Positions 1 to 15,974 of a DNA stretch of 64,000 bases are shown one piece after another. A program made the translations under genes and the position numbers. Source of the stretch: Rhodospirillales bacterium (lineage in GTDB: Bacteria; Pseudomonadota; Alphaproteobacteria; Acetobacterales; Acetobacteraceae); NCBI GenBank assembly GCA_947458025.1, contig CANHCJ010000002.1, positions 6,455-70,454 of the forward strand. The letters run 5' to 3'. The notes under the pieces are model-generated. The model was not told the origin of the DNA and did no database searches. It saw nothing but the letters and a program-made list of their open reading frames with translations. Numbering within the stretch: position 1 is the stretch's first letter; each line of letters starts with the position of its first letter.

Positions 1-3000
1 GCCGCCACCACCCTCTCGCTCGCCGCGCCCGGCATGACCTTCACCGGCACCGGCGCCCTCACCGCCACCGGGGGCACCGTCGAGATCGGGCCGACCAGCG
101 GCACCCGCACCTTCGGCCTTGGCACGGCCCCAGGAGACTTCGCGCTCGGCGCGCTTGGCAACGTCTCGGCCAGCCTGGTGCGGATCGGCCAGGCCAGTTC
201 CACCGGCAACCTCAACAAGGCCGCCAGCATCACGCTGGCCGACGCCGTCACGCCCGCGGCCACCACGCTGGAGCTGATCACCAGCGGCGCCATCACCCAG
301 ACCAAGGGTGGGCTGGTGATCCCCACCCTGACGGCCAAGGCCGTCACGCTCGACCTCTCCCAGCCCGGCAACGCCATCGGCGCCCTCGGCGCCCTCGTCA
401 TCACCGGCGACCTCGCGATCGCCAACGACAGCCCCATCGCCGTTCCCGGCGCGCTCTCCGCCGCCAACATCACCCTGCGCAGTGCCGCCGCATCCGCCAC
501 GGCGCTCGGGATTTCCGGCACCCTTGCCACCACTCCGGGCGGCACCATCACGCTGGCAGCCACCGACGCCGTGGGCGGCATCGCCCTGTCGGGCAAGCTT
601 GACGCCACCGCCACCGGCACGATCGACCTTACCGCCGGCAGCAGCGGCATCGCCCAGGCCGCAGGCACGCTCACGGCCGCCCAGCTGCGCAGCACCGGCG
701 GCGCCACCGGCAACGTCTCGCTCGATCAGGCCGCCAACGCCATCGGCACGCTCGGCGACATCACTCTCGTCGGCGGCGCTCTTGCCGTGCGCAGCAGCCT
801 TGCCCTGGACATCACCGGCGCCGTTGCCGCCGACGCCCTCGCCCTGCGCAGCGCGGGCGCGACGCTGAACCTCACCGCCACCGGCAGCCTGGTGGCGTCC
901 GGCACCGCGCTGCTCGCCACCACAAGCGGTGCCGGCGGCATCGGCCTGGCCGGCGCTGCCAAAGCGGCCACGCTCGATCTCTCCGCCGGCAGCGCCGGCA
1001 TTACCCAGACCGGCGGCACCCTCACCGCCGGCACCCTCACCAGCACCGGCGGCAGCGCCGGCGCGGTTGCGCTGGCCGAGGCCGGCAACAGCATCACGGC
1101 GCTCGGCCCATTCTCCGTTCCCAACGCCACCCTGACCCTGGTCGATGCCGCGGCGCTGACGGTGACCGGCCCTGTCGTGGCCGCCAACGTCACGCTGAGA
1201 AGCAGCGCCGCCAGCGCAAAGGCAATCGACGTCACCGGCTCCGTCACCGCGAATTCCGGCGGCACCATCACCCTGGCGGCGGCCAACGCCGCCGGCGGCA
1301 TCACCCTGGCCGGCACCGTGAGCGCACCGGCAGGAACGATCGATCTCTCCTCGGGCAGCTTCGGCATCGCCCAGTCGGCCGGCACCATCGCCGCCGTCAC
1401 ACTGCGCAGCTCCACCGGCGCATCCGGCCCGGTCTCTCTGCTCCAGACAGCCAACAAGATCGCCAGCCTCGCCGATTTCGCCGTCAGCGGCGGGGGCTTT
1501 GCGCTGTCCACCAGCCAGGCCCTTACCGTCCCCGGCACGGTCAAGGCCAACGACATCACCCTGGAGGGCTCCGCGGCCGGCACCGCCATCGCCCTCACCG
1601 GCACGCTGTCCGCCCCAAGCGGCACGCTCGCCCTCACCGCCTCCAACCCTGGCGGCGGCCTCTCGCTCGGCGGCAGCGCCAGCGCGGACCAGGTGAACCT
1701 CGCCGCCGGCACCGGCGGAATCGTTCAGCCCGCCGGCAGCATCTCGGCCGCCACGCTCCGCGCCAAGGTCACCGGCGGCGACGCCGCGCTCGACCGCACC
1801 GGCAACAGTATCGCCACTCTGGGCGACACCTCCATCACCGGCGGCACCCTCCTGCTGGTCGACAGCGTGCCGCTGACAGTGGCGGGCACCGTCAGCGCGA
1901 ATTCCGTTACGATCAGCAGCACTGCGCCGGGCCCGGCCATCACGGTCACCGGCGGGCTCGCCTCTTCCGCCGGCGGCACCATCGCGCTCACCGCCGGCAA
2001 CGCCACCGGCGCGATCGACCTCGCCGGCACCATCAGTGCCACCGCCACCGGCACGCTCGACCTCACCGCTGGCGCCAATATCAGCCAAAGCGCCGGCAGC
2101 ATCACGGCCGGGACCCTGCGCAGCACGGGCAAGGTCGGCGGCAACCTTGCCCTCACAGGCGCCGCTAACGCCATCGGCAGTATCGCCACACTCGCGGTGG
2201 CCGGCACCGCCAGCATCGCCGACAGCATCGCTCTCAACATCTCGGGAACGCTGTCTGCCGCCACCCTGTCCGTCACGGGGTCCGCCGCCGGCACCGCCAT
2301 CTCGATCACCGGCAGCGCATCGTCAACCGGCACTATGACGCTTGCCGCCACCGACCCAACAGGCGGCATTGCCCTCTCGGGCACGGTCTCCGCCGCACTG
2401 CTCGACCTCGCGGCCGGCACCGCCGGCGTCTCGCAAACCGCGGGCACCGTGTCGGCCGCGACTCTGCGCAGCGCAGCCGGCGTCGGTGGCGCGACGACCC
2501 TCGATCAGGCCGGCAACGCCGTCACCACGCTCGCCGATTTCACCGTCACCGGCGGTGGCTTCACGCTACGCAGCGCCACGGCCCTGGACATCGCCGGCAA
2601 CCTCTCCGCCGATGCGATTACTTTGCGCGGCGCCGCCGCATCGCCGAATGCCCTGACCCTGAGCGGCAGTCTTTCGACCGCAGGCACGGCATTCCTCGCC
2701 GCCACCGCGCCCACCGGCGGCATTGCCCTCGCTGGCAGCGCGCAGGCCGCCACGCTGGATCTCTCCGCAGGCTCGGCCGGCATCGCGCAGACCGCGGGCA
2801 CGATCAAGGCCACGACGCTTACAAGCACCGGCGGCAGCGCAGGCACGGTCACGCTCGGCCAGGGCACGAACAGCATCGCGACGCTGGGCGATTTCGCCGT
2901 GACCGGCGGCACGTTCGCCCTGACGGACGCCGCAGTCCTCACCGTCGCCGGCACCGTGAAGGCCGGCTCGGTCGGCATCACGGCTCTCCCCGGCGGCACG

Positions 3001-6000
3001 GCCATCTCCGTCACCGGCACCATCGCCACCAAAGCCGGCGGCACCATCACCCTTGCCGCCACGGATCCCGCAAGCGGGATCACGCTGTCCGGCAACCTCG
3101 ACGCCACACCCACCGGCACGCTCGACCTTTCCGCCGGCACCGGAGGCATCTCGCAAACCGCCGGCAGCATCACCACCGGCCTGCTGCGCAGCGCCGGCGG
3201 CGCCACCGGTCTCGTGGCGTTGACCCAGGCCAGCAACGCGATCTCCAAGCTGGGCGACTTCCAGGTCAAGGGCGCCGCGTTCGCGCTGGCCGACAGCATC
3301 CCCCTTGTGATCACCGGCCCGGTGGCCGCCCCCGCCATCACCCTGGACAGCTCCGCGGCCGGAACCGCGATCTCCCTCACCGGCGATCTCGCCGCGCCCG
3401 GCGGCGCCGTGACCCTCAAGGCTTCCGGCACGAAGGGAGGCCTGTCGCTCGCCGGCACCGTCACCGCCGACCAGCTCGACCTCGTCGCAGGCAGCGGCGG
3501 CATCGCCCAGCCGGGCGGCAGCATCAGCGCGACAACGCTGCGCGCCACGGCCACCAGCAGCGCCACGCTGGGCCGTGCCGGCAACAGCATCGCCATCCTG
3601 GGCCCGACCACGATCACCGGCGGCACCTTCACCTTGGCGGACAGCATCCCGCTCGCCGCCGCAGGCCCGGTGAAGGCCGACGGCATCGCGATCACCAACT
3701 CCGCCGCCGGCACCGCCATCGCCGTCACCGGCAACCTGACCACCTCGCCAGGTGGCACCATCGCACTCGCGGCCAGCAACCCCGCCGGCGCCATCGATCT
3801 CGGCGCCTCTATCGACGCAACCCCCACGGGCATCGTCGACCTGTCCGCCGGCGCCGGCGTTTCCCAAAGTGCCGGCAACATCATCGCCGGAACCCTGCGC
3901 AGCACCGGCGGCATCGGCGGCGTCCTTACCCTCGTGCAGCCAGCCAACGCCTTCGCCGTCGTCACCGATCTCAAGGTCGCAGGCGCGGCAAGCCTCATGA
4001 GCAGCATCGCGCTGGCACTGGCCGGCCCGATCTCCGCCGCAGACCTCACCGTCACCGGCACCTCGGCCGGAACAGCTATCGCGCTCACCGGCACCGCCTC
4101 GGCCACCGGCACCATGACGTTGCTGGCCAGCAGCCCCACTGGCGGGATCGCACTCTCCGGCACGGCCACGGCGTCCCTGCTCGACCTCGGGGCCGGCACG
4201 GGCGGCATCACGCAATCCGCCGGCAGCCTCACGGCAACCACACTGCGCAGCACCGCCGGCTCGTCCGGCGCGGTCGCCCTGTCGCAAGCGTCCAACAAGA
4301 TCGCCACGATCGACAATTTCTCGGTCGCCGGCAAAACCTTCACGCTGTCCAACACATCCGCACTGACCATCAACGGCATCCTGGCCGCCGCCAGCATCAA
4401 CCTGACGAATGCCGCGGCCGGCACAGCCATCAGCCTGTCAGCTACAGGCAGCCTCAACGCCAATGGCAGCCTCAAGGACAGCACGGGCTTCCTGAACCTG
4501 GCCGCAACCAGCGCCACCGGCGGCATCGCACTCAACGGCAACGTGCAGGCGACCACGCTCGATTTCGCCGCCGGCACCGGCGGCGTCACGCAGGGTGGCG
4601 GCACCATCACGTCCGCCACCCTGCGCAGCTCCAGCGGCGTCGCCGGCACCGTGGAACTGCTCCAGCCAGGCAACGCCGTCACATCCATCCTCAAGTTCCA
4701 GGTCTCCGACGGCGACTTCGCGCTACGCAACGCAATGGCGCTGAACGTCGACACCCTGGCCGCCCGAAATGTCGACCTGCGCACGCTCGCCGGAAGCATC
4801 AACGTCTCGACCGGGATCACGGCCGGAACAGGCGGGCTCATCCGCGTGGACGCCGCTGGCGCCATCTCGCTGGGCAACCTGAACGCGTCGGCAACCGGGG
4901 TTATCGACCTCAATGCCGGCGCCGGAATCCTGCAGGGCGGAAGCACCTCGCTCACGGCGGGCACACTGCGCAGCAGCAACGGTGTCACCGGCACGGTCAG
5001 CCTCGTCGGCAATTCCATCTCCAAGATCGCCGACTTTGCGGTGTCAGGCGGCAGCTTCAGCTACGGCGGCCTCGTGCCGCTCATCGTGTCCGGCGTCCTG
5101 TCGGCAACCGACGTCACGTTGATCAACAACTCCGCCAGCCCCGCCGCCCTCAGCATTGCCGGAACCGTGCGTGCAGCTACCGGCGGCACGATTTCGCTGG
5201 CAGCACTCTCTCCCACCGGCGGCATTGCGCTGGCCGGAACCGTCGATGCGACCACCACTGGCCTGCTGGACCTCCAGGCCGGCACCGGCGGCGTGATGCA
5301 AACAGCGGGAACGGTCACCGCCAACCGGCTGCAGAGCAACAACGGCGTCGGCGGCTCCGTCGCGCTCGACCTGCCGGCCAACAGCATCGACATCCTCGGC
5401 GCCATTGCCGTCAAGGCCGGCGGCCTCAGCCTCACAGGCAGCCAGCCGCTCACCGTCCTCGGGCCCGTCACCATCTCCGCCGGAAACCTCGGTCTCACCA
5501 GCTCGGCGCCCGGAACGGCACTCACCCTGGCCGGACCCGTCACCGTCTCTGGTTCGGCCAAGCTCGCCGCCACCGATCCCGCTGGCGGGATTGCACTCAC
5601 CAGCACGCTGAATGCGGCAACGCTGGACCTCGTCACCGGCACAGGCGGTACCACCCAAACCGCGGGCGCGCTCACGCTCGGCACGCTTCAGGGATCCAGC
5701 CTCAACGGCAGCGTCAACCTGGCCCAGCCAGGCAACAGCATTGCCAAGGTCGGTACGCTCGTGCTCGGCAGCGGCGATGTCACCCTCGCCAGCAGCACGC
5801 CGATCACTGTGGCGGGCACGCTCAAGGCCCTCCAGGGCGACATCTCCATAACAGGCCTTGCTGCGGGCCCTGCGGCGGTCGACGTCACGGGCAAGGTCAG
5901 CAGCGGTCCCGGTCGAACAATCATCCTCGGCACCTCCATCGGCGGCATCACCATTGGCGGCTCAGTGGCAGCCCCCGGCGGCGTGCTGCTGTTGCCGACC

Positions 6001-6130
6001 GCCACCGGCGTGACAGCCCCAGGGGTGCTATCCGCCAACAACCTCGGCGCATCCGCCACCAAGGCCGGCAACATCGCCCTGGCCGGCCAAAACACCATCG
6101 GAACCCTGGTCGGCGCCATCCTCGCCAACG
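1..6130 (+). repeat. Hierarchical in-frame tandem repeat: ~345-378 nt units nested in a 1779-1782 nt (593-594 aa) five-unit super-repeat, about three copies
   Basis: The 9-mer CTGCGCAGC (the LRS motif) recurs at 685/2464/4243 (spacing 1779, 1779), at 1402/3184/4966 (1782, 1782) and at 2116/3895 (1779). Units 1/6/11, 3/8/13, 4/9 and 5/10 resemble each other more than they resemble their neighbours. Confidence 0.9.
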
Positions 6131-6831
6131 GCAACTTCCTGTTGAACAACGCCGCGCCGCTCACTGTCAGCGGCCCCGTCACCGCGCGAGTCCTCGGCAT
6201 CACCGCGGCCGGCAGCCTCAAGCTCTCCGATGGCGTCGCCATCACCACCGACGGCAAGCCTCGCGCCGAGCAGGGCGTCAGCAACACACTCACGCCGGGC
6301 CAGATCGCGGCCCTCGCCACGCCCGATCTCGGGAGTTATCTCGCGGTCACATCCAGTTTCGGCGCCCCGGCGAAGATCGACACGGGCAAGATCACCGTCG
6401 CGCCCTTCTCCCTTCCCCAGGCCACGCTGGACTTCGTCCTGCCGCACCCGGCGGCCGGCACCGTTTCGATCGGCCAACTCACCGGCAAGGCCACCGATCT
6501 GATCCTCGTCACGCGCTCCAGCGGCATCGCCACCGGCACCATCGACGTCGCCAACCTCCTCATCGTCGGCACTGGCGGAAAGGCCGACCTCTTTGGCAAG
6601 ATCGGCGGCATCGACGGCCAGGCCGCGGCCAACCGAGCCAGCATCTCGCCGCAGCCCGACAGCGACTACCGCTTCAACGCCTGCCCGATCACCTCGGTGA
6701 ATTGCGTGCTGATCCCGATCCAGACCGTTCCGCCCATCAGTCCGCTGCGCGATGTGCCGATCATCCGCGACCGCCCCACCCAGGACGACACGGACGTGCA
6801 ACTGCCCAACGTCTCCGAAGAGGACTACTGA
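1..6831 (+). CDS. Giant Gly/Ala/Thr-rich repeat exoprotein, filamentous-hemagglutinin (TpsA/FhaB)-like beta-helical passenger; 5' end lies outside the window
   Basis: Frame 1 is open from nt 1 to TGA 6829-6831, and the ATG at 34 is internal. More than 2265 aa are dominated by G/A/T/S/L with almost no aromatic or charged residues. About 16 units of 115-125 aa each carry AG(T/S)(L/I)xAx(T/Q)LRS...GN(A/S)IxxLG. The last ~230 aa are non-repetitive and hold the only two Cys (FNACPITSVNCV) plus an acidic tail (SEEDY). The class call is by resemblance only; any TPS secretion domain would be upstream of the window. Confidence 0.8.
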   Translation, partial: AATTLSLAAPGMTFTGTGALTATGGTVEIGPTSGTRTFGLGTAPGDFALGALGNVSASLVRIGQASSTGNLNKAASITLADAVTPAATTLELITSGAITQTKGGLVIPTLTAKAVTLDLSQPGNAIGALGALVITGDLAIANDSPIAVPGALSAANITLRSAAASATALGISGTLATTPGGTITLAATDAVGGIALSGKLDATATGTIDLTAGSSGIAQAAGTLTAAQLRSTGGATGNVSLDQAANAIGTLGDITLVGGALAVRSSLALDITGAVAADALALRSAGATLNLTATGSLVASGTALLATTSGAGGIGLAGAAKAATLDLSAGSAGITQTGGTLTAGTLTSTGGSAGAVALAEAGNSITALGPFSVPNATLTLVDAAALTVTGPVVAANVTLRSSAASAKAIDVTGSVTANSGGTITLAAANAAGGITLAGTVSAPAGTIDLSSGSFGIAQSAGTIAAVTLRSSTGASGPVSLLQTANKIASLADFAVSGGGFALSTSQALTVPGTVKANDITLEGSAAGTAIALTGTLSAPSGTLALTASNPGGGLSLGGSASADQVNLAAGTGGIVQPAGSISAATLRAKVTGGDAALDRTGNSIATLGDTSITGGTLLLVDSVPLTVAGTVSANSVTISSTAPGPAITVTGGLASSAGGTIALTAGNATGAIDLAGTISATATGTLDLTAGANISQSAGSITAGTLRSTGKVGGNLALTGAANAIGSIATLAVAGTASIADSIALNISGTLSAATLSVTGSAAGTAISITGSASSTGTMTLAATDPTGGIALSGTVSAALLDLAAGTAGVSQTAGTVSAATLRSAAGVGGATTLDQAGNAVTTLADFTVTGGGFTLRSATALDIAGNLSADAITLRGAAASPNALTLSGSLSTAGTAFLAATAPTGGIALAGSAQAATLDLSAGSAGIAQTAGTIKATTLTSTGGSAGTVTLGQGTNSIATLGDFAVTGGTFALTDAAVLTVAGTVKAGSVGITALPGGTAISVTGTIATKAGGTITLAATDPASGITLSGNLDATPTGTLDLSAGTGGISQTAGSITTGLLRSAGGATGLVALTQASNAISKLGDFQVKGAAFALADSIPLVITGPVAAPAITLDSSAAGTAISLTGDLAAPGGAVTLKASGTKGGLSLAGTVTADQLDLVAGSGGIAQPGGSISATTLRATATSSATLGRAGNSIAILGPTTITGGTFTLADSIPLAAAGPVKADGIAITNSAAGTAIAVTGNLTTSPGGTIALAASNPAGAIDLGASIDATPTGIVDLSAGAGVSQSAGNIIAGTLRSTGGIGGVLTLVQPANAFAVVTDLKVAGAASLMSSIALALAGPISAADLTVTGTSAGTAIALTGTASATGTMTLLASSPTGGIALSGTATASLLDLGAGTGGITQSAGSLTATTLRSTAGSSGAVALSQASNKIATIDNFSVAGKTFTLSNTSALTINGILAAASINLTNAAAGTAISLSATGSLNANGSLKDSTGFLNLAATSATGGIALNGNVQATTLDFAAGTGGVTQGGGTITSATLRSSSGVAGTVELLQPGNAVTSILKFQVSDGDFALRNAMALNVDTLAARNVDLRTLAGSINVSTGITAGTGGLIRVDAAGAISLGNLNASATGVIDLNAGAGILQGGSTSLTAGTLRSSNGVTGTVSLVGNSISKIADFAVSGGSFSYGGLVPLIVSGVLSATDVTLINNSASPAALSIAGTVRAATGGTISLAALSPTGGIALAGTVDATTTGLLDLQAGTGGVMQTAGTVTANRLQSNNGVGGSVALDLPANSIDILGAIAVKAGGLSLTGSQPLTVLGPVTISAGNLGLTSSAPGTALTLAGPVTVSGSAKLAATDPAGGIALTSTLNAATLDLVTGTGGTTQTAGALTLGTLQGSSLNGSVNLAQPGNSIAKVGTLVLGSGDVTLASSTPITVAGTLKALQGDISITGLAAGPAAVDVTGKVSSGPGRTIILGTSIGGITIGGSVAAPGGVLLLPTATGVTAPGVLSANNLGASATKAGNIALAGQNTIGTLVGAILANGNFLLNNAAPLTVSGPVTARVLGITAAGSLKLSDGVAITTDGKPRAEQGVSNTLTPGQIAALATPDLGSYLAVTSSFGAPAKIDTGKITVAPFSLPQATLDFVLPHPAAGTVSIGQLTGKATDLILVTRSSGIATGTIDVANLLIVGTGGKADLFGKIGGIDGQAAANRASISPQPDSDYRFNACPITSVNCVLIPIQTVPPISPLRDVPIIRDRPTQDDTDVQLPNVSEEDY

Positions 6832-6832
6832 C

Positions 6833-9800
6833 ATGCTGCGGATCGCCGTCAGCCTTGTCGCAGCCCTTCTCACGGGCCTCGCCGCCTGCACCACGCCGCC
6901 CGAAAGCGCCTACGTCAGCGGCGCCCAATCCAGTCGGTCGGAGGGCGGCGTCGCACTCGGCAAGAACGCATCCGGCGAGGACTGCACCCAGCAGGCGATC
7001 GGCGAAGGTGCGGATGTCTATTGCGGCACATGGCTGCAGCCGAGCGCCCGCATCCGTCGCCCGCCCCCGGGCTCGCCCGTCTCGGCGGCGGAAATGGCCA
7101 CCAGCGGCCCATGGCGCACCGGGCTCGACCAGCGCTACACCTGCCAGCCACCCGCCCCAACCTCGGTCCTGGGCGGCGAGCCAGCCCTCCTGTTGCAATG
7201 TGCGCGCCGCGTCGGCGGCTGGTCACACATCGCCCTCGTCGCCACGGTCGGTGGCCGCACCTGGCTCGCCGACGGCGTGCAACCCGCGCTTCCGGTGCTT
7301 GAGCGCTCCATCGGCGTCCTCTCCGGCCGACTGCCCGCTGCCGCAGCCGCCGAGGCCCAGGGCGGCGCGGCACAGCGCCTGCTGGCCGAACGCGCCGCCG
7401 CACGCGCGTTCTCCTCCGGCGATGTCGGCGAATACGACCGCCTGGTCCGCGTGGCCGACGATTCCAACCGCACCGAGGACTTCGCCGGCGCCGAGAAGAA
7501 CCTCCGCGCCGCGCTCGCCCTGCAGCAGAAGGCGCTCGGCCCCGACAACCCCAATACCGTCGTCAGCCTGATCTCGCTCGCCCTGCAGGTCTCCAACCAG
7601 CGTCGCTTCGCCGAGGCCGACGCGCTGTTCACCCGGGCCAACCAGTTCGCCGCGGCGGCGGATGACCCGCTGCAGGCGATCCGCCTGGTGCACTATCAGG
7701 GCCTTCACGCCGCCAACCAAGGCCATGCCGACGAGGCTCTCACCCTCCTGGCCCGCGCCGGCCGCGGCTACGCTGAGCAGTTGCCAGACGAAGTGCGCAG
7801 CGCCCGGCCTCGCGGCGCCACGCGGGTCGGCGCCAGCGGTGCCGGGTCCGGCATGGCCGACCTCTTGCCGAACCGCGAGATGCTCTCCGCCCCCGCCACC
7901 CGCACCGCTCTTCTGGGCCTGATCGAGGTCCGGCGCCGCGAGGCGGCCCTTCTGCGCCGTGCGGGGCGAGTGGAGGAAAGTGCCGCGGCACTGCGGATCG
8001 CCAGCGACCTCGTCGCCGGCAACGGCCTGCGCCAGCCGGTAATCACGGCACGAATGGCCCGCACCGGCGCGGGCATCGTGGCGCAGACCGTTGGCGCCGA
8101 TGCCGCCGCCGACGAATACGCCCGCGCCGCCGCCGTCTTCGCCCAGGCCCTGCCAGACAGCCGACCGGTAGCCGAGACACTGCTGCTGCGCGCCGGGCAG
8201 ATGGCCCGTGCCGGCCAAGCCGCCGCGGCGGGCGACACCTGCCTGCACGCCGTGAAGCTTCTCCGCCAGCTGCGCATCGGCACGGAACCCGCCCTTCTGG
8301 CCCCCTGCCTCGATGCCTTCGCCACCGCGGCCAAGGCCCGGACCGGAGAGAGCCAGAAATGGCTCACCGAGATGTTCGAGGCAGCCCAGCTCGCCCAGGG
8401 GGGCGTCACCAGCCAGCAGATCGCCCAGGCCACAGCGCGCCTCTCGGAGAACGCGCGCGACCCCAAGGTCGCCGCCGCCATCCGTGCCCGCGAGGACATC
8501 CGCGCCCGCCTCGCCGACCTGTACCGCGAGCGCGACCAGTTGGAGCCGAATGCCGCCACAAACGCACCCGTCTCCTCGCCCGAGCTCGACGCGCGGATCG
8601 CCAAGGCGCAGGAAGAGGCGGCAGAGGCCGAGTCTGCGCTGCAGGTCGCCTCGCCCAACTATGGCCAGCTCGTCCAGCAGGTCGCCGCCGCCGCCGATGT
8701 GCTCGCCGCCTTGGCCCCTGGCGAGGCCTTCGTCTCGCTCACATTGAGCGAGACCGGCGGATGGGCCTTCGCCCTGCGCGACGGCCGCATTGACGTCTCT
8801 GCCATCCCGGGCGGCCTGCCGGAGATGGCCCGCCTCGTACGCCGCGTGCGCGAAAGCATTGAAAACACCACGGGTGTTCCCCCACCCTTCGACATCGAAG
8901 CCGCCCAGGCCATCTACCGCGCCACGCTGGCAGGCCTGGAACCGGCACTGCGGGGCGCCGACGCCCTGGTGATCGTCCCGTCGGGACCGCTGCTGTCCTT
9001 GCCCTTCGAACTCCTCCTCACCGGGCCCGCCACGCCGGACAAGCTCGCCACGGCACCATGGCTGCTCCGCCGCGCCGCCATCTCGCATGTGCCCGCCGCT
9101 GCCAACTTCGTCTCCTTGCGCAAGATCGCCGGCAACTCCCGCGCCACCCGGCCCTGGTTCGGCTTCGGCGACTTCCAGCCAGTCACGGTCGCGCAGGCCA
9201 CGCGCACCTTCGGCAATGAATGCGCCGACAGCGCCCGTCTCTATGCCGGCATGCCCCCGCTGCCCTTTGCCCGCGCCGAGCTCGAGGTATCCCGCCGCCT
9301 GCTCGGCGCAGCCGCGAACGATACACTGCTGGGGCCGTCCTTCACCGTTCCAAACGTGAAGCGGGCCAACCTGAAGGATGTCCGCATCCTGCACTTCGCC
9401 ACCCACGCCCTCCTGCCGGCGGAGCTGCGCTGCCAGGCCGAGCCGGCCATCGTCACATCCGCGCCCCCAGGTGCACCCGATGCCGGCGGTTCCCTGCTGA
9501 CCGCCTCGGCCATCCTCGAACTGGATCTCGACGCAGACACGGTGATCCTGTCTGCCTGCAACTCCGGAGGCCCGGGCGGCACCACCGCCGGCGAAAGCCT
9601 TTCCGGCCTCGCACGCTCCTTCTTCTACGCAGGCGCCCGCTCATTGCTGGTCACCCACTGGTCAGTGAACGACCAGATCGCCGCCTACCTCGTCGCAGAC
9701 GCGCTGCGCCGCCTCAGCGAAGCCCCTGCGCTCGGCATTACGGGGGCCATGCGCGCCGCCCAGCTCGGCATGCTGGACGAAGCCGGCAAGGGCCTCGTGG

Positions 9801-9913
9801 CCGATGTCGCCCATCCGTTCTACTGGGCCCCCTTCGCCATCATCGGCGAGGGCGGCACACGCCGCACTCCGGCGCAGGCAGCTGTTTCGGTGCCGGCCCC
9901 ACGCGGGCTATAA
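6833..9913 (+). CDS. TPR-CHAT domain protein (caspase-like Cys protease fold) with lipoprotein signal peptide
   Basis: ATG 6833 lies 1 nt after the giant-gene stop, with GAAGAGGA just upstream. The N-terminus MLRIAVSLVAALLTGLAAC is a signal peptide plus lipobox (LAAC, Thr at +2). A Cys-containing N-domain is followed by TPR-like helical repeats (AEKNLRAALALQQKALGPDNPNTV...). The C-terminal CHAT signature is HFATHA (His codon 9404-9406) ... LSACNSGG (Cys codon 9557-9559) ... LLVTHWSV. Confidence 0.85.
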   Translation: MLRIAVSLVAALLTGLAACTTPPESAYVSGAQSSRSEGGVALGKNASGEDCTQQAIGEGADVYCGTWLQPSARIRRPPPGSPVSAAEMATSGPWRTGLDQRYTCQPPAPTSVLGGEPALLLQCARRVGGWSHIALVATVGGRTWLADGVQPALPVLERSIGVLSGRLPAAAAAEAQGGAAQRLLAERAAARAFSSGDVGEYDRLVRVADDSNRTEDFAGAEKNLRAALALQQKALGPDNPNTVVSLISLALQVSNQRRFAEADALFTRANQFAAAADDPLQAIRLVHYQGLHAANQGHADEALTLLARAGRGYAEQLPDEVRSARPRGATRVGASGAGSGMADLLPNREMLSAPATRTALLGLIEVRRREAALLRRAGRVEESAAALRIASDLVAGNGLRQPVITARMARTGAGIVAQTVGADAAADEYARAAAVFAQALPDSRPVAETLLLRAGQMARAGQAAAAGDTCLHAVKLLRQLRIGTEPALLAPCLDAFATAAKARTGESQKWLTEMFEAAQLAQGGVTSQQIAQATARLSENARDPKVAAAIRAREDIRARLADLYRERDQLEPNAATNAPVSSPELDARIAKAQEEAAEAESALQVASPNYGQLVQQVAAAADVLAALAPGEAFVSLTLSETGGWAFALRDGRIDVSAIPGGLPEMARLVRRVRESIENTTGVPPPFDIEAAQAIYRATLAGLEPALRGADALVIVPSGPLLSLPFELLLTGPATPDKLATAPWLLRRAAISHVPAAANFVSLRKIAGNSRATRPWFGFGDFQPVTVAQATRTFGNECADSARLYAGMPPLPFARAELEVSRRLLGAAANDTLLGPSFTVPNVKRANLKDVRILHFATHALLPAELRCQAEPAIVTSAPPGAPDAGGSLLTASAILELDLDADTVILSACNSGGPGGTTAGESLSGLARSFFYAGARSLLVTHWSVNDQIAAYLVADALRRLSEAPALGITGAMRAAQLGMLDEAGKGLVADVAHPFYWAPFAIIGEGGTRRTPAQAAVSVPAPRGL

Positions 9914-9963
9914 CTGCTCTCAGGCCGGGTCGCGACCCCGGCGGCGACGCGGAAGGGAGTCGG

Positions 9964-12033
<2,070 letters not shown>

Positions 12034-13145
12034 ACCGCCCGGCGCGGCCGTCGCAGCACTGCCCCCGCCGACGGCAAGCTGGCCACGCAGGCATCGCGCA
12101 GCCAGCCATTCGGCATGCCAAGCAGGAACGCCGCCTGCCAACGGTCCATCACCTCCACCGTCACGCCCAGCGCCGCCGGGCTGAACAGCCGCGCGTCGGT
12201 GGTGTGCATCAGGTAGGCCTGCATCTCATTGGCCATAAGGTCGTCATTCGCGGGATCGTAGCCCTGCGCCGTGAGGTAACGACGGAAAATCCTGCGCCCG
12301 TCCTCGTCAAGACCATCGCGCCAAAAGCGGCGCACATACTCGGCATAGGGCGGGTTGGTGAAAAACTCGGCATGCGACAATTCATGCCGCAGGATGGCCG
12401 CCCGCATCCCGGCATCCATGCCATGCCCAGCCCGCGACTGCGGGACAGAAATCACCGCCCCGCGTGTATTCGGCTCGAACCAGCCTTCCTGGCGCAGCAA
12501 CTGACGCAGCCACTCCTCCTGCGGCCGCAGCCGAATGCCGTCACGGTCGGCAAGAGCAAAGAAGCGGGCCAAGTCATGCGCGGTGTAGTCATGCCCGAAA
12601 TAATAGGTTTCCATGGTATCGCCCGCCGCCGATATGGCGGCGTCGAGATCGCGGTCGTTCAGCACGCGATCCCGCGGCTGGCCGGCCTTCTCCACCAGAG
12701 CAGCCACGCGGTTCAGCATCAGCCCCTGCTCCAGCAGGGACGCAAAATCCAGCACCAGGATCCGCCGGTTCGAATAGAACCGGAACACCACCACCCCGTC
12801 CCCGTCATGCGCCAGGATCTCGTTCTCATCAGCCAGCCGAACGGTGATCCTGGGCGCCTCAGCTTCGCTGCCAGGTCCTGTATAGAGGTCCGCCGAGGGG
12901 GACTTCTCCCGCATCAGGAACCAGCCCACCACGCCGACGATAATCACGCACACCAGCGCAATCATCCGGAACATCGGGGGCATCCCACCGCCCGCTGGCA
13001 TCAATGACCGGTCAGTAGGCCGACCATAAGTGCGCTTGCGCTGAACACGTACGGTCGCATCATCGTCCTGCGGAGGCTTCGACTCAGGCGTCCGCGTCAT
13101 CGCCCTGTCCGATCAGGTACGAATTGCATCGCAGGCCAGACCGCA

Positions 13146-13817
13146 TCAGGCACCGATATTGATCACCTGCACGCGCCTGTTCCGGGGCTCGGGCGTCTGG
13201 TCCGGCGTCTGCACCTTCAGCGCCTCCTGGCCACGCCCGACTGGCTCCAGCCGGGCTGCAGCCACGCCGAACCGGCTCTGCAGGTACTCTGCCACCCGGG
13301 CAGCCCGCGCCTGCGACAGGCTCATGTTGGCCGAACGCGATCCCGTCGTGTCGGTGTGGCCCTCGATGCGGAACCTGTAGGCCGCCAGAGCCTCATGGCT
13401 CAACGCTCGGCCGAGTTCATCCAACGTGCGCATCGCCTCGGGCGTCAGTTCGGCCGACCCGCTCTGGAACTGCACGGTGAGGTCGATCGAGGGTGCGGCC
13501 ACCTGCTGTGCCGGCGCGGTTGCCGCCACACTCGGGGCCGCCGGCGCTGCCACGGCAGCCGCTCCTGCCGCTCCAGCCGCCGCAGGCGCGGCCACAGCTG
13601 GCCGCGGTTCAGCCGAACCGGTCACCGGCGCTGTCGCAGCAGGGGCAGTGCCCGGTGACGCCGGACGGATGCCGCGCACCCCAGTCTGCAACGGCCCGCT
13701 CGGACGCAGCGCGCGGATGATCTGGTCAGCCGATGGCGAGCCCTGCGCCTGAACGGCCTGAGCGCCCAACAAAACGCCGGGAGCAACAAGGATTGAGGCG
13801 AGAAGCAAGTTGCGCAT
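13146..13817 (-). CDS. OmpA-family (OmpA_C/MotB-like) peptidoglycan-binding protein with Sec signal peptide
   Basis: MRNLLLASILVAPGVLLGAQAVQAQG is a signal peptide, followed by an Ala/Pro-rich linker. The C-terminal part has the OmpA pattern FQSGSAELT...IEGHTDTTGS...NMSLSQARAARV...NRRVQV. It lies 45 nt upstream of the HExxH gene on the same strand. Confidence 0.85.
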   Translation of the reverse strand: MRNLLLASILVAPGVLLGAQAVQAQGSPSADQIIRALRPSGPLQTGVRGIRPASPGTAPAATAPVTGSAEPRPAVAAPAAAGAAGAAAVAAPAAPSVAATAPAQQVAAPSIDLTVQFQSGSAELTPEAMRTLDELGRALSHEALAAYRFRIEGHTDTTGSRSANMSLSQARAARVAEYLQSRFGVAAARLEPVGRGQEALKVQTPDQTPEPRNRRVQVINIGA

Positions 13818-13948: not shown

Positions 13949-14971
13949 CTAGTCAAACGTAGTGTCGGACCCCAGGTGGAACAGGCAATCGCCCCGCACC
14001 GTCCGGCCGGGCACCCGCTTGCAAAGCACGAACCCCTCCCGGGCGAAGCGGAACTCAACGGCCGGCGCCCAGGGCGTCTCCGGAAAGTGTATCCTGCCGG
14101 CGACCTGCCCCTTTTTCACTTCATCGCCAAGTTCCACCGCGGGTTCGAACACGCCGTTCTCGGGCGCGTACACGAAATACTCGGGGCCGCCGACGTTCAG
14201 GAACCGCGTCTCCTCGCCCTTCAGTCGCATCTTCTTCGGCAGGATACCCATGTGCACCAGCACGTTGCGCAACCCGCGTTCCACAATCCGCAACGCCGCC
14301 GGCGTCACCTGGCCAGAGCCGCCAAGCTCCGTACCCACCGCTAGCTTGCCGGCGCGCTCCACGCCGCCCATCAACGTGCTGTCGGTTCCGGTGCCATTGC
14401 CGCCACCTGCAATGTAGGCCAGCGGGGATCCAAAGGCCTGCAAAAGCGCCGCCTGCTGCCTGTGCCGGTCCGGATCCGGGGTACGCTTGATCAACGCGCA
14501 AGGCACGTACATCAGAGAAGACCCACCCGAGTGCAGGTCGCACACCACATCGGCCATCGGGATCAGCACATGCTCGATGAAGAACGCAATCTGCTGCGTC
14601 ACCGTTCCGTCCGCGTCGCCAGGGAAGGTACGGTTCAAGTTGCCCTCGTCGATCGGCGAGGTCCGCTTACCCGCCATCGCGGCCGGAAAATTGGCCATTG
14701 GCAGGATGATCACCCGCCCCTTCACCTGCGACGGTTCCAGCGACTTGGCCAGATTGCTCAGCGCCACCTGGCCCTCGTACTCGTCGCCATGATTCCCTGA
14801 CACGAACAGCGCAGTAGGCCCGGCCCCGTTCTTGATCACCACGATAGGTATTGGGATGAAACCGTAGGCCGAACTGTGCACGGAATGGAACAGCCGTACG
14901 AACCCGGTCTGCTTGCCCTCCGCGTTGAAGTCCACATCCGGAACCAGGCGTGAGCGGGCAGCGTCCGACAT
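13949..14971 (-). CDS. Succinylglutamate desuccinylase/aspartoacylase (AstE/AspA, DoeB-like) family Zn deacylase
   Basis: VSGNHGDEYEG and DLHSGG motifs, ~340 aa. It is the last gene of the peptide ABC operon. Confidence 0.75.
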   Translation of the reverse strand: MSDAARSRLVPDVDFNAEGKQTGFVRLFHSVHSSAYGFIPIPIVVIKNGAGPTALFVSGNHGDEYEGQVALSNLAKSLEPSQVKGRVIILPMANFPAAMAGKRTSPIDEGNLNRTFPGDADGTVTQQIAFFIEHVLIPMADVVCDLHSGGSSLMYVPCALIKRTPDPDRHRQQAALLQAFGSPLAYIAGGGNGTGTDSTLMGGVERAGKLAVGTELGGSGQVTPAALRIVERGLRNVLVHMGILPKKMRLKGEETRFLNVGGPEYFVYAPENGVFEPAVELGDEVKKGQVAGRIHFPETPWAPAVEFRFAREGFVLCKRVPGRTVRGDCLFHLGSDTTFD

Positions 14972-14987
14972 TGTTTCGTTCCCTCGT

Positions 14988-15970
<983 letters not shown>

Positions 15971-15974
<4 letters not shown>

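What the first reader, a model, noticed from the sequence alone, without database searches (positions are those of the whole stretch)
1..13817. Envelope-embedded module: giant repeat exoprotein + lipoprotein TPR-CHAT protease + transmembrane Ser/Thr kinase, capped by a convergent OmpA-like/HExxH operon
Seen in sequence: five adjacent genes whose products all carry export or membrane signals.
(i) A repeat protein of more than 2265 aa.
(ii) A CHAT caspase-fold protease with an intact His/Cys dyad and a lipobox. Its ATG is 1 nt after the stop of (i).
(iii) A Hanks kinase with one TM helix, a ~90-aa Pro-rich spacer and a DUF4384-like outer domain.
(iv, v) A Sec-exported OmpA-like peptidoglycan binder and an N-in membrane protein with HELSH. 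This operon converges on (iii), and (v) overlaps (iii) by 82 nt.

Established knowledge: characterised CHAT proteases such as Csx29 act in the cytoplasm. Giant adhesins can be controlled by a periplasmic Cys protease plus an inner-membrane signalling receptor, as in LapA/LapG/LapD of Pseudomonas.

Inference: this may be a non-homologous analogue. A periplasmic caspase-like protease would process or release a giant surface protein under control of a transmembrane kinase, with the OmpA and HExxH proteins as wall-anchoring or processing accessories. I know of no characterised system with this composition.
Basis: partly seen in the sequence, partly recalled or inferred. Interest (0 to 1): 0.82.

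Follow-up and report, generated by a model that had tools for sequence, protein, structure and literature searches.

The report
Two-partner secretion operon with caspase-like lipoprotein
The giant repeat protein is the exported partner of a two-partner (type Vb) secretion system whose operon, across the Acetobacteraceae, also encodes a caspase-like lipoprotein protease and usually a membrane kinase, which probably control whether the giant protein stays on the cell surface, though this is untested.

Summary
All five genes are real at the stated coordinates. The only coordinate correction is the kinase start, at 9964.

**What the genes are**
- The giant ORF is the 3' part of a TpsA exoprotein. 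A same-clade locus (CHAT 82% identical) reads TpsB, TpsA (4266 aa, Pfam TPS domain), CHAT 1 nt later, kinase, then the convergent HExxH gene with the same 82-nt overlap.
- The CHAT protein is an extracytoplasmic lipoprotein. Its lipobox Cys, the His858/Cys909 dyad and eight further Cys are conserved in 120 homologues.
- The kinase ectodomain is DUF4384.

**How the genes co-occur**
- tpsA lies directly before CHAT in 48 of 48 species loci.
- The kinase lies beside CHAT in about 70-80% of loci.
- The OmpA/HExxH pair is, in many relatives, the last two genes of a type VI secretion cluster.

**Proposed mechanism (inferred)**
- TpsA ends in a fixed tail: a di-alanine motif, then Cys-x6-Cys at position -49, then a terminal D-Y/F.
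- This resembles the retention tails of CdrA and HMW1.
- I propose that CHAT cleaves this periplasmic tail, as LapG cleaves CdrA, with the kinase as partner.

**Verdict:** a new variant of a known kind.

The parts
1..6831 (+). 3' part (2276 codons) of tpsA, a giant beta-helix-type repeat exoprotein of a two-partner (type Vb) secretion system. The TPS domain and the tpsB gene lie upstream of the window.
   Evidence: The ORF is open to the window edge. It is at least 4429 aa in the source contig. It is collinear at 61% identity over 2277 aa with P0257 (4266 aa), whose N-terminus carries Pfam TPS at 4e-18. P0257's locus L147 reads TpsB-TpsA-CHAT-kinase. Orthologous loci have TPS and ShlB/POTRA_2. 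Repeat period is about 118 aa and GC3 is 0.88.
6616..6828 (+). Conserved C-terminal tail of TpsA, proposed to be a periplasmic retention module. It holds a di-alanine motif (GQAAAN, codons 2206-2211), Cys2228-x6-Cys2235 (the only two Cys in the 2276-aa fragment), the motifs LP..NPL..LPNV, and a terminal EEDY.
   Evidence: Across loci, the first Cys is at -49 from the C-terminus in 39 of 40, the di-Ala motif lies about 17 aa upstream in 34 of 40 (exactly TAAG in one clade), and the end is D-[YFL]. The last 120 aa hit 556 library representatives at E<=0.001. Of the 150 best, 142 have C-x6-C in the last 60 aa and 126 end in D[YFL].
6833..9913 (+). Lipoprotein TPR-CHAT caspase-fold cysteine protease (1026 aa). 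Order of parts: signal peptide with lipobox (Cys19 at 6887-6889), Cys-rich beta domain, TPR superhelix, CHAT domain (His858 at 9404-9406, Cys909 at 9557-9559).
   Evidence: Pfam CHAT 2e-47. The lipobox Cys (99%), H858, C909 and eight other Cys are conserved in 120 homologues. The AF2 model has pLDDT 73. Foldseek top hits are DdvA periplasmic TPR-CHAT, separase and craspase Csx29, at E about 1e-9 to 1e-10. It starts 1 nt after the tpsA stop.
9964..12033 (+). Single-pass Hanks-type Ser/Thr kinase (689 aa). The kinase domain is cytoplasmic. It is followed by a TM helix, a Pro-rich linker of about 100 aa, and a periplasmic ectodomain (a disulfide-containing subdomain plus DUF4384).
   Evidence: Pkinase 8e-55. 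The ectodomain alignment has two invariant Cys. DUF4384 is hit in 18 of 19 orthologues. The kinase lies directly after CHAT in 33 of 48 genome loci, and CHAT lies directly upstream in 23 of 28 kinase-anchored metagenome loci.
11952..12983 (-). N-in single-pass membrane protein with a periplasmic domain of about 250 aa. It carries invariant GHDY, HELSH(G/A)EFF and NEMQAY motifs and is a putative gluzincin-like metallopeptidase of an undescribed family. The ORF could start as early as 13100. The last ~45 codons overlap the kinase and are not conserved.
   Evidence: No Pfam, NCBIfam, PADLOC or PDB sequence hit. The family has 757 or more members, all named 'hypothetical'. The AF2 model has pLDDT 86.5. 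It has no significant PDB neighbour, and the weak top hits are zinc peptidases. OmpA precedes it in 6 of 6 loci anchored on it, and the kinase is convergent in 5 of 6.
13146..13817 (-). Sec-exported OmpA-like peptidoglycan-binding protein (223 aa), co-transcribed with the HExxH gene. In many relatives the two are the last genes of a T6SS cluster.
   Evidence: OmpA 2e-22. T6SS genes (TssG/F/E, ImpE, TssC/B, plus a methyltransferase) lie next to it in L023, L026, L033, L036, L042, L052, L060-L063, L073, L075, L105, L126, L127, L132 and L146. None occur in this window.

Best explanation
**What it is (shown).** The region is the distal two-thirds of a type Vb (two-partner) secretion operon, tpsB-tpsA-chat-stk. 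It is followed by a convergent pair, ompA-like and HExxH.
- TpsB is an Omp85/POTRA outer-membrane pore. It lies just upstream of the window.
- TpsB exports a giant TpsA filament built of ~118-aa repeats.
- TpsA ends in a conserved non-repeat tail. The tail has a di-alanine motif, a Cys-x6-Cys loop placed exactly 49 residues from the end, and a terminal acidic-aromatic residue pair.

**How it probably works (inferred).**
- TpsA proteins are threaded through the pore N-terminus first. The tail is therefore the last part to leave the periplasm.
- By analogy with HMW1, HxuA and CdrA, the disulfide-bonded loop plugs the TpsB pore and keeps the filament on the cell.
- The next gene starts 1 nt after the tpsA stop. 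It encodes a lipoprotein TPR-CHAT protease that sits in the periplasm, probably tethered to the outer membrane.
- I propose that this protease recognises and cuts the retained tail. Recognition may be through its kinesin-light-chain-like TPR region.
- Cutting would mature or release the filament. This is the job LapG does for CdrA, done here by an unrelated caspase-fold enzyme encoded in the operon.
- The single-pass Ser/Thr kinase has a periplasmic DUF4384 domain. That domain recurs fused to caspase-like proteases and forms the C-terminal domain of one group of Csx30, the substrate of the TPR-CHAT protease Csx29.
- I propose the kinase is the inner-membrane partner. It would either dock and restrain CHAT, as LapD restrains LapG, or report tail cleavage to the cytoplasm.
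- The OmpA-like and HExxH proteins are envelope accessories shared with, and probably derived from, a neighbouring T6SS cluster.

Gene identities, topology signals and co-occurrence are shown. Every proteolytic and signalling step is inferred.
For: **Identity of the system**
- Orthologous loci have Pfam TPS and ShlB/POTRA_2.
- The complete same-clade locus L147 reads TpsB-TpsA(4266 aa)-CHAT-kinase, then convergent HExxH. Its CHAT is 82% identical to the window's. Its TpsA is 61% identical over 2277 aa and carries a TPS domain.

**Coupling of tpsA and CHAT**
- The gap is 1 nt and the SD lies in the tpsA tail codons.
- No terminator-like site lies on the + strand between the genes.
- tpsA lies directly upstream of CHAT in 45 of 48 loci by tblastn. 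The other three have TPS or repeat hits upstream.

**CHAT is extracytoplasmic and probably active**
- The lipobox Cys, eight further invariant Cys and the H858/C909 dyad are conserved in 120 homologues.
- The fold matches DdvA periplasmic TPR-CHAT, separase and Csx29.

**The tail**
- Fixed geometry and motifs are shown. The module sits at the extreme C-terminus of giant proteins across the library.
- The fragment has only two Cys.

**Precedents**

**The kinase link**
- The kinase is adjacent to CHAT in 33 of 48 CHAT-anchored loci, plus 3 in a divergent arrangement. CHAT lies directly upstream in 23 of 28 kinase-anchored loci.
- The adjacency survives in three different gene orders.
- DUF4384 is confirmed. 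Its association with proteases and Csx30 is reported in bioRxiv 10.1101/2022.08.17.504292.
Against: - No experiment bears on any step. CHAT specificity is unknown, and no cleavage site can be assigned.
- The di-alanine motif is the known consensus of LapG, an unrelated protease. A LapG-like enzyme encoded elsewhere could be the real releasing protease. Whole genomes could not be searched.
- About a quarter of tpsA-chat loci have no adjacent kinase. A few kinase orthologues sit next to T6SS/OmpA/HExxH with no CHAT nearby (L063, L073, L089, L105). The kinase is therefore not obligatory for CHAT and may serve the T6SS.
- The only characterised periplasmic TPR-CHAT, DdvA, has not been shown to cleave anything.
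- The CHAT model is of moderate confidence only (pLDDT 73).
- The outer- versus inner-membrane assignment of the lipoprotein rests on the E. coli +2 rule.
Confidence: 0.5

Rival explanations
1. **Trans-envelope signalling device feeding the T6SS.** The substrate or partner of CHAT is the kinase, not TpsA. CHAT would act on the kinase's long Pro-rich periplasmic linker or its DUF4384 ectodomain. The surface TpsA filament would act as the sensor, of contact or envelope stress, that switches CHAT on through its periplasmic tail. The kinase would then act like PpkA of the threonine-phosphorylation pathway and activate the neighbouring type VI secretion system.
For: - T6SS core genes directly abut the OmpA/HExxH/kinase side in many loci. 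They are next to OmpA in 13 of 34 assessable loci.
- The kinase stays with the T6SS side in loci that lack TPS-CHAT (L063, L073, L105).
- DUF4384 forms the C-terminal domain of a group of Csx30, the substrate of the TPR-CHAT protease Csx29.
- DdvA, the closest solved periplasmic TPR-CHAT, is proposed to cut a flexible juxtamembrane linker to signal across the membrane.
- From my own knowledge: T6SS regulation by a transmembrane Hanks kinase with an outer-membrane lipoprotein input (PpkA with TagQRST in P. aeruginosa).
Against: - The window clade and an Acidocella-like clade keep TPS-CHAT-kinase-HExxH-OmpA with no T6SS gene nearby (21 of 34 loci). The 64-kb window has no T6SS hit.
- Eight loci have TPS-CHAT-kinase with neither HExxH/OmpA nor T6SS.
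- No FHA-domain or PP2C gene was seen next to the kinase.
- CHAT is linked to tpsA in 48 of 48 loci but to the kinase in fewer.
Confidence: 0.2
2. **Neighbouring but separate systems.** tpsB-tpsA-chat is one unit. The kinase, the HExxH protein and the OmpA-like protein belong to, or are remnants of, a T6SS cluster that happened to lie beside it in an Acetobacteraceae ancestor. Vertical inheritance, not function, would then explain the five-gene pattern.
For: - All loci come from one family-level lineage, Acetobacteraceae/Rhodospirillales, so shared ancestry inflates the co-occurrence counts.
- OmpA/HExxH follow TssG or a methyltransferase in the same orientation, as the end of the T6SS operon.
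- TPS-CHAT occurs alone in 12 or more loci.
- T6SS-OmpA-HExxH occurs alone in L062.
Against: - Kinase-CHAT adjacency survives in three distinct gene orders: chat-stk co-directional; stk divergent from tpsB (L013, L015, L046, L061); and chat-ompA-HExxH convergent with stk (L092, L094).
- It also survives with quite different flanking genes. Rearrangement without separation argues for selection.
- The kinase start lies 50 nt after the CHAT stop with its own SD and no terminator-like site between.
Confidence: 0.2
3. **CHAT is not the releasing protease.** It would be a periplasmic holder or chaperone (TPR-mediated) or a pore-side plug for the TpsA tail, with its dyad used only for self-processing or not at all. 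Release at the di-alanine site would be by a LapG-type protease encoded elsewhere.
For: - The motif [T/A/S]-A-A-[G/A] upstream of the Cys loop matches the LapG consensus. It is exactly TAAG in one clade.
- DdvA's CHAT domain is in a resting state and its dyad mutants had no phenotype.
Against: - His858 and Cys909 and their flanking motifs are invariant in 120 homologues down to 53% identity. This argues for retained catalysis.
- No LapG/LapD-type gene lies in the window or in any of the more than 140 loci examined, although whole genomes were not searched.
Confidence: 0.1

Closest known systems
CdrA/CdrB with LapG/LapD of Pseudomonas aeruginosa (type Vb adhesin released by regulated periplasmic proteolysis)
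   Same: - A TpsA adhesin-like filament is exported by a TpsB.
- Its C-terminal tail stays in the periplasm. The tail holds a cysteine 'hook' and, just upstream, a di-alanine motif.
- A periplasmic cysteine protease and a single-pass or two-pass inner-membrane signalling protein are on hand.
   Different: - The protease here has the caspase/CHAT fold with a TPR arm and a lipid anchor. LapG is a transglutaminase-like enzyme.
- The membrane partner here is a Hanks Ser/Thr kinase with a DUF4384 ectodomain. LapD is a c-di-GMP receptor.
- The protease and kinase genes lie inside the TPS operon. The TPS review says this is not the case for known maturation proteases.
- Nothing here is tested experimentally.
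HMW1/HMW1B and HxuA/HxuB of Haemophilus influenzae (C-terminal disulfide anchor)
   Same: A short C-terminal periplasmic domain with one disulfide-bonded loop is thought to lock the TpsA in its TpsB pore. Here the only two Cys of the 2276-aa fragment form a conserved C-x6-C at -49/-42.
   Different: - The Haemophilus systems have no dedicated protease or kinase. Their accessory genes are a glycosyltransferase or a TonB receptor.
- The tail here is longer and ends in a conserved D-Y/F.
FhaB/FhaC of Bordetella with SphB1 (and periplasmic degradation of the FhaB prodomain)
   Same: A giant TpsA is matured by proteolysis at its C-terminal, periplasm-retained end. SphB1 is also a lipoprotein protease dedicated to one TpsA (prodomain papers listed).
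   Different: - SphB1 is a surface subtilisin autotransporter encoded outside the fha locus.
- FhaB has a prodomain of about 1200 aa, not a tail of about 70 aa.
DdvA of Myxococcus xanthus (transmembrane anti-sigma factor with periplasmic TPR-CHAT)
   Same: It is the only characterised periplasmic TPR-CHAT. It has the same TPR-superhelix plus CHAT architecture with a His-Cys dyad, and it is a top Foldseek match (8rw5/8rot, E about 7e-10). It is proposed to act on a flexible juxtamembrane linker.
   Different: - DdvA is fused to its own TM helix and a cytoplasmic zinc anti-sigma domain, and it pairs with an ECF sigma factor.
- The protein here is a free lipoprotein with an extra Cys-rich N-terminal beta domain. 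It pairs with a TpsA and a kinase.
Craspase (Cas7-11 with Csx29 TPR-CHAT) and its substrate Csx30; separase
   Same: The TPR-CHAT fold is shared (7y85_D, 9hma). DUF4384, the kinase ectodomain here, is the C-terminal domain of one group of Csx30.
   Different: Craspase and separase are cytoplasmic and RNA- or securin-regulated. They have no secretion-system context.
PpkA/PppA/Fha1 with TagQRST (threonine-phosphorylation control of the H1-T6SS)
   Same: A transmembrane Hanks kinase with a periplasmic sensor domain is encoded at the edge of a T6SS cluster, with an outer-membrane lipoprotein upstream of it in the pathway (own knowledge). T6SS adjacency is shown.
   Different: - The ectodomain here is DUF4384, not vWA.
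- No FHA or PP2C gene was seen nearby.
- The T6SS is absent from this window, and the kinase is more often linked to CHAT than to the T6SS.

Membership tests
Two-partner (type Vb) secretion system | TpsA with an N-terminal TPS secretion domain (Pfam PF05860) | tested here: met
   It cannot be seen in the window because the gene is cut at the left edge. It is met in the collinear same-clade protein P0257 (TPS 4e-18, above cutoff), in 17 orthologous loci, and in 33 of 50 long library representatives that carry the same C-terminal module. Four of the 17 that missed that screen were scanned with Pfam, and three of them also scored for TPS.
Two-partner (type Vb) secretion system | Cognate TpsB: an Omp85-type barrel with POTRA domains, encoded next to tpsA | tested here: met
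   ShlB, POTRA_2 and Omp85 lie directly upstream of tpsA in L013 and L015, L061, L147 of the window clade and 12 loci by tblastn. It lies outside the window itself.
Two-partner (type Vb) secretion system | Long beta-helical repeat passenger | tested here: inconclusive
   The protein is rich in Ala, Gly, Thr, Ser and Leu, with a 118-aa repeat, and it is homologous to the repeats of the orthologues. There is no Pfam repeat hit, and its structure was not modelled.
Contact-dependent inhibition (CdiA/CdiB/CdiI) | Polymorphic C-terminal toxin after a VENN or pretoxin motif, followed by an immunity gene | tested here: not met
   The C-terminus is conserved across the family and is not polymorphic. 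The next gene is always CHAT, not a small immunity gene.
CHAT / clan CD caspase-fold peptidases (Pfam PF12770) | CHAT domain with a catalytic His-Cys dyad | tested here: met
   PF12770 scores 2e-47 over 3-289 of 289 profile positions. H858 and C909 are invariant.
CHAT / clan CD caspase-fold peptidases (Pfam PF12770) | TPR-CHAT architecture like separase, craspase and DdvA | tested here: met
   The AF2 model has a helical repeat region at about 180-600 followed by an alpha/beta CHAT domain. Foldseek probability is 1.0 to DdvA, separase and Csx29.
CHAT / clan CD caspase-fold peptidases (Pfam PF12770) | Proteolytic activity | not testable with these tools
   This needs biochemistry.
Lap system (LapG protease / LapD receptor) | LapG-type transglutaminase-like Cys protease and a LapD GGDEF-EAL c-di-GMP receptor | tested here: not met
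   No such domains occur in the five proteins or in the gene lists of related loci. The system can only be an analogue, not a member. Whole genomes were not searched.
Lap system (LapG protease / LapD receptor) | Substrate with a periplasmic retention module and a di-alanine cleavage motif | tested here: inconclusive
   A motif [TASPQG]AA[GANQSV] lies about 17 aa before the Cys loop in 34 of 40 tails, and it is TAAG in one clade. Cleavage was not tested.
Bacterial lipoproteins | Signal peptide ending in a lipobox [LVI][ASTVI][GAS]C | tested here: met
   The window protein reads ...LLTGLAAC19. The Cys is 99% conserved, within L-[AF]-[GA]-C contexts. No dedicated predictor was available.
Hanks-type Ser/Thr kinases | Pkinase domain with the VAIK Lys, HRD and DFG motifs | tested here: met
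   Pkinase scores 8e-55. VAIK, HRDIKPAN and DFG can be read in the translation.
DUF4384 (Pfam PF14326) | Profile match in the kinase ectodomain | tested here: met
   The window protein scores 22 bits, below the 27-bit cutoff. But 18 of 19 orthologous ectodomains match, best 2e-10.
Type VI secretion cluster (as accessory genes) | Core genes (TssB/C/E/F/G and others) adjacent | tested here: not met
   There is no T6SS hit in the 64-kb window. The feature is met only in relatives.
T6SS threonine-phosphorylation pathway (PpkA/PppA/Fha) | FHA-domain target and PP2C phosphatase encoded with the kinase | tested here: inconclusive
   Neither appears in the 10-kb flanks that were listed. The far side of the T6SS clusters could not be reached.
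Zinc metallopeptidases (gluzincins), for the HExxH protein | HExxH plus a downstream Glu ligand in a zincin fold | tested here: inconclusive
   HELSH and, 48 residues later, NEMQAY are invariant. The model is confident (pLDDT 86.5), but its best PDB matches (collagenase, lethal factor, a putative zinc peptidase) have E of 0.4 or worse. There is no profile hit.
OmpA-like peptidoglycan-binding proteins | OmpA C-terminal domain (PF00691) | tested here: met
   It scores 2e-22 over 2-97 of 98 profile positions.
Anti-phage defence systems (PADLOC) | Match of the module's proteins to defence-system models | tested here: not met
   CHAT, the HExxH protein and the TpsA tail have no hit. The kinase matches only generic kinase-domain models (PD-T4-6, mad6), and OmpA matches only the MotB-like part of ZorB.

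The most novel reading that the evidence does not exclude
The tpsB-tpsA-chat-stk unit may be a surface-to-cytoplasm signalling machine.
- A filament thousands of residues long would act as a mechanical or contact probe.
- Its periplasmic tail would be read by a caspase-like lipoprotein.
- That protease would in turn act on the DUF4384 ectodomain of a Hanks kinase.
- The kinase would trigger the adjacent type VI secretion system or other responses.

This would be a caspase-type proteolytic relay across the Gram-negative envelope that couples a type V to a type VI secretion system.
Probability: 0.12. Interest if true: 0.85.

Novelty: new variant of a known kind. Interest (0 to 1): 0.6.

Why it matters
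- Two-partner secretion is thought of as a minimal two-gene system. The main review states that genes for TpsA maturation proteases are not part of TPS operons.
- Here a caspase-fold protease gene is fused into the operon, translationally coupled to tpsA, in 48 of 48 species-level loci of one bacterial family. A transmembrane Ser/Thr kinase is usually attached as well.
- If CHAT cuts the conserved TpsA tail, this would be the first substrate-defined periplasmic CHAT protease. It would also be a second, independently evolved solution to the retain-or-release switch known from LapG with CdrA or LapA. This version would be wired to protein phosphorylation instead of c-di-GMP.
- It would also give a testable role to DUF4384, a domain that keeps turning up beside caspase-like proteases.
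- The recurrent junction with a T6SS cluster hints at cross-talk between type V and type VI secretion.
- The organisms are environmental Acetobacteraceae, so the interest lies in mechanism and evolution rather than medicine.

Tried and rejected
- **Full-length giant proteins.** The protein word-index search with the TpsA C-terminal 799 aa returned only fragments of 1364 aa or less, so full-length giants were not reached that way. The exhaustive representative search with the last 120 aa did reach them. One of them could be looked up, which gave the complete same-clade locus.
- **HExxH protein.** Sequence searches against Pfam, NCBIfam, PADLOC and PDB found nothing. Foldseek of a confident model found nothing significant either. 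It remains an undescribed family.
- **Kinase ectodomain.** A PDB profile search gave only noise.
- **Literature.** 'CHAT domain' combined with two-partner secretion, hemagglutinin, TpsA or ShlB gave no paper. The Cooley et al. 2016 CdrA paper is not held, so the cysteine-hook details are cited second-hand.
- **Distant CHAT loci.** Those outside the family (L055-L057: Polyangiaceae, Chthoniobacter, Halomicronema) were too short or too unrelated to test a wider CHAT-TPS link. My recollection that some cyanobacterial CHAT proteins carry TPS domains stays unverified.
- **Defence-system reading.** Considered and rejected.
- **CDI toxin system.** Rejected, because the C-terminus is conserved and there is no immunity gene.
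- **The 82-nt convergent overlap as a regulatory feature.** Rejected, because the overlapping HExxH tail is unconserved and disordered, and the overlap is absent in other clades.
- **Antisense ORFs inside tpsA as genes.** Rejected as by-products of the G+C-rich repeat sequence.
- **Promoter/terminator scan.** Uninformative, apart from showing no + strand terminator-like site within the operon.
- **T6SS phosphorylation-pathway genes.** I looked for FHA and PP2C genes beside kinases that lack CHAT and found only housekeeping genes.

Full report
**Observation**

The five ORFs exist as described.
- **Giant ORF.** It runs from the left edge of the window to 6831. In the source metagenome scaffold it is at least 4429 aa and is still cut by the contig end. 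It is Ala/Gly/Thr/Ser/Leu-rich. Its repeat period is about 118 aa, with a 593-aa super-repeat, and GC3 is 0.88.
- **CHAT gene.** It starts at ATG 6833, one base after the TGA at 6829-6831. A GAAGAGGA ribosome-binding site lies inside the last tpsA codons.
- **Kinase.** It starts at ATG 9964, 50 nt after the CHAT stop, not at 9958.
- **HExxH gene.** It ends at 11952 and so overlaps the kinase 3' end by 82 nt.
- **Domains.** Pfam gives CHAT 2e-47, Pkinase 8e-55 and OmpA 2e-22. TPR_12 and DUF4384 score below cutoff. The giant protein and the HExxH protein have no Pfam hit. NCBIfam adds nothing specific.

**Identity of the giant protein**

A scan of species-representative genomes with the CHAT protein gave 56 loci. 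Nearly all are Acetobacteraceae or Rhodospirillales MAGs, including Acidocella, Acidiphilium and Acidisphaera.
- Where the giant gene is short enough to be seen whole (L013, L015), it has an N-terminal Pfam TPS secretion domain. It is preceded by a ShlB/POTRA_2/Omp85 gene.
- By tblastn, 17 loci show the TPS domain and 12 show the TpsB.
- For the window's own clade I searched the library of cluster representatives with the last 120 residues. That returned full-length giants.
- One of them, P0257 (4266 aa), is collinear with the window fragment at 61% identity over 2277 residues. It has a TPS domain above Pfam's cutoff.
- Its contig, L147, reads TpsB (571 aa), TpsA (4266 aa), CHAT (1 nt later), kinase, and the convergent HExxH gene with the same 82-nt overlap. 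Its CHAT is 82% identical to the window's.

The window therefore holds the distal part of a type Vb, two-partner secretion operon: tpsB-tpsA-chat-stk.

**The CHAT protein**

In 120 homologues (53-98% identical), several features are conserved:
- the lipobox cysteine (Cys19);
- the catalytic His858 and Cys909;
- eight further cysteines (51, 64, 104, 123, 470, 492, 797, 867).

This fits an oxidising, extracytoplasmic location and retained catalysis.

An AlphaFold2 model (pLDDT 73) shows a beta-rich N-terminal domain, a long TPR-like helical region and the CHAT alpha/beta domain. Its best structural neighbours are the periplasmic TPR-CHAT domain of the Myxococcus anti-sigma factor DdvA, human separase, and Csx29 of the type III-E craspase. 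By sequence, the TPR part resembles kinesin light chain TPRs.

**The TpsA tail**

All TpsA orthologues end in the same non-repeat module. In order, it contains:
- a motif G-x-[T/A/S/Q]-A-A-[G/A/N/Q];
- about 17 residues later, Y-R-F-N-x-C-P-I-x-S-V-N-C;
- then L-P, N-P-L and L-P-x-V motifs;
- a final D-Y, D-F or D-L.

The first cysteine is exactly 49 residues from the C-terminus in 39 of 40 tails. The di-alanine motif is present in 34 of 40 and reads TAAG in one clade. The two cysteines are the only ones in the 2276-residue window fragment.

In the whole library the module has 556 representatives at E<=0.001. It lies at the very C-terminus of proteins of up to about 5400 aa. Of the 150 best, 142 have C-x6-C in the last 60 residues and 126 end in D-[YFL].

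**What is known about such tails**
- In P. aeruginosa, CdrA is held in CdrB by a C-terminal 'cysteine hook'. It is released when the periplasmic cysteine protease LapG cuts a TAAG motif in the tail. LapG is under control of the c-di-GMP receptor LapD (PMC4694147; PMC7616799; bioRxiv 10.64898/2026.07.13.738186).
- The same review notes that genes for TpsA maturation proteases are not part of TPS operons.
- I found no paper that links a CHAT domain to two-partner secretion. A survey of polymorphic toxin systems lists only HINT as a processing protease for T5SS toxins.

**Co-occurrence**

*CHAT-anchored species genomes*:
- The TpsA tail is directly upstream in 45 of 48 assessable loci. The other three have TPS or repeat hits upstream, so tpsA precedes chat in 48 of 48.
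- The kinase follows chat in 33 of 48 loci. In three more it lies divergently upstream of tpsB.
- The HExxH/OmpA pair lies beyond the kinase in 19 of 26 loci.

*Loci anchored on the kinase ectodomain*, from metagenomes:
- chat is directly upstream in 23 of 28.
- The HExxH/OmpA pair is convergent downstream in 29 of 51.
- Two loci show a third order: chat, ompA, HExxH, then the convergent kinase.

*Loci anchored on the HExxH protein*:
- OmpA in 6 of 6.
- The kinase convergent in 5 of 6.
- TPS-CHAT in 4 of 6.
- T6SS in 4 of 6.

**The type VI connection**

In many relatives the OmpA-like and HExxH genes are the last two genes of a T6SS cluster. The order is TssB, TssC, TssC, ImpE, TssE, TssF, TssG, often a methyltransferase, then OmpA and HExxH.
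- T6SS or methyltransferase genes lie next to OmpA in 13 of 34 assessable loci.
- The window clade and an Acidocella-like clade lack them. The 64-kb window has no T6SS hit.
- One locus has T6SS-OmpA-HExxH-kinase without TPS-CHAT (L063). One has T6SS-OmpA-HExxH alone (L062).
- Kinase orthologues without CHAT have unrelated housekeeping genes upstream, with no FHA or PP2C genes.

The five genes thus form a real, recurrent neighbourhood made of three layers:
- a strict tpsB-tpsA-chat core;
- a kinase that is usually, but not always, attached to it;
- an OmpA/HExxH pair shared with a T6SS cluster.

**The kinase and the HExxH protein**
- The kinase ectodomain has two invariant cysteines. It matches DUF4384 in 18 of 19 orthologues.
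- DUF4384 is reported to be often fused to protease domains. It also forms the C-terminal domain of one group of Csx30, the substrate of the TPR-CHAT protease Csx29 (bioRxiv 10.1101/2022.08.17.504292). It occurs in orthocaspases (PMC7475262) and in one proteobacterial kinase family (bioRxiv 10.1101/2025.01.12.632604).
- The HExxH protein belongs to a family of 757 or more 'hypothetical' proteins. Its invariant motifs are GHDY, HELSH(G/A)EFF and NEMQAY.
- Its model is confident (pLDDT 86.5) but has no significant solved neighbour. The weak top hits are zinc peptidases. Its C-terminal ~45 residues, the part that overlaps the kinase, are unconserved and disordered.

**Mechanism**

Shown:
- the gene identities;
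- the export and topology signals;
- the conserved dyad;
- the conserved tail geometry;
- the genomic linkage.

Inferred:
- TpsA proteins are exported N-terminus first, so the tail remains in the periplasm. Its disulfide loop would hold the filament in TpsB.
- The co-translated CHAT lipoprotein would bind and cut this tail to mature or release the filament.
- The DUF4384 kinase would be its inner-membrane partner, either restraining CHAT or reporting its action.

I give this model 0.5. The rivals are:
- a signalling relay in which CHAT acts on the kinase and the output is the T6SS (0.2);
- mere inherited adjacency of two or three separate systems (0.2);
- a non-proteolytic CHAT, with release by a LapG-type enzyme encoded elsewhere, as the di-alanine motif might suggest (0.1).

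**Comparison and novelty**

The system works most like CdrAB with LapG/LapD. It is not a member of that family, because no LapG- or LapD-type domain is present (and the gene lists of related loci). It is a bona fide TPS system and a bona fide CHAT protein. It is not a CDI system and not a known defence system.

I rate it a new variant of a known kind: a TPS operon with a built-in caspase-fold lipoprotein and a Ser/Thr kinase. Interest is 0.6, for three reasons:
- The association is strict, undescribed in the literature I could search, and readily testable.
- It is confined to one bacterial family.
- All functional steps are still inference.

Noticed in passing
window 726-1712, 1725-2447, 2505-5024 (- strand): Long antisense ORFs (up to 839 aa) inside tpsA have GC3 of 0.88-0.90, as high as real genes. 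They are by-products of the G+C-rich Ala/Gly/Thr repeat sequence and would mislead a GC3-based gene caller.
   Followed up: partly
window 13949-20472 (- strand): An AstE/AspA-like gene is followed by an Opp-type ABC transporter operon (two ATPases, two permeases, SBP_bac_5). This synteny is kept throughout the window clade. It sits where other clades have T6SS genes.
   Followed up: partly
window 20412-55486: An ordinary metabolic neighbourhood. It holds a DMFA2_C (dimethylformamidase-like) gene, M20 and M28 peptidases, acyl-CoA dehydrogenase, an AMP-binding ligase, a luciferase-like monooxygenase, a FadB-like fusion, penicillin amidase and enoyl-CoA hydratase.
   Followed up: partly
window ~58000-64000: GC skew changes sign, from about -0.2 over most of the window to +0.06/+0.085 after ~60 kb. 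The cumulative minimum is near 59 kb. I did not examine whether this reflects a replication landmark or only a change in gene orientation.
   Followed up: no
L092 and L094 (JGI metagenome contigs): A third gene order occurs here: chat, ompA-like and HExxH on one strand, convergent with the kinase. The OmpA/HExxH pair directly follows chat with no T6SS genes between.
   Followed up: partly
L144 5612-9019: Upstream of OmpA/HExxH in this MAG lie a Peptidase_C14 (caspase-like) protein with PG_binding_1, a HAMP protein, and a second Pkinase with DUF8082. This is another caspase-plus-kinase pairing beside the module.
   Followed up: no
L145 11062-11895: A stand-alone 277-aa gene with a weak DUF4384 hit sits between the HExxH gene and the kinase. 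It looks like a duplicated or detached kinase ectodomain.
   Followed up: no
L013/L015 (2259-2284 aa) versus L060 (5461 aa), and P0325 (5433 aa): Orthologous TpsA proteins vary more than two-fold in length while keeping the same TPS head and the same C-terminal tail. The repeat stalk therefore expands and contracts freely.
   Followed up: partly
L033, L042, L060-L063, L073, L075, L105, L126, L146: A ~500-aa methyltransferase (Methyltransf_11/12/25/31 plus MethyTransf_Reg) lies between TssG and the OmpA-like gene in these T6SS clusters. This is an unusual T6SS neighbour.
   Followed up: no
TpsA tails across loci, between the NPL motif and the LP-x-V motif: The last ~20 residues switch charge by clade: acidic in the window clade (QDDTDVQ), strongly basic in the Acidocella-like clade (RKRRRLDKN), and acidic again (DEDDD) in others. 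This might co-vary with the CHAT TPR surface. I did not analyse it.
   Followed up: no
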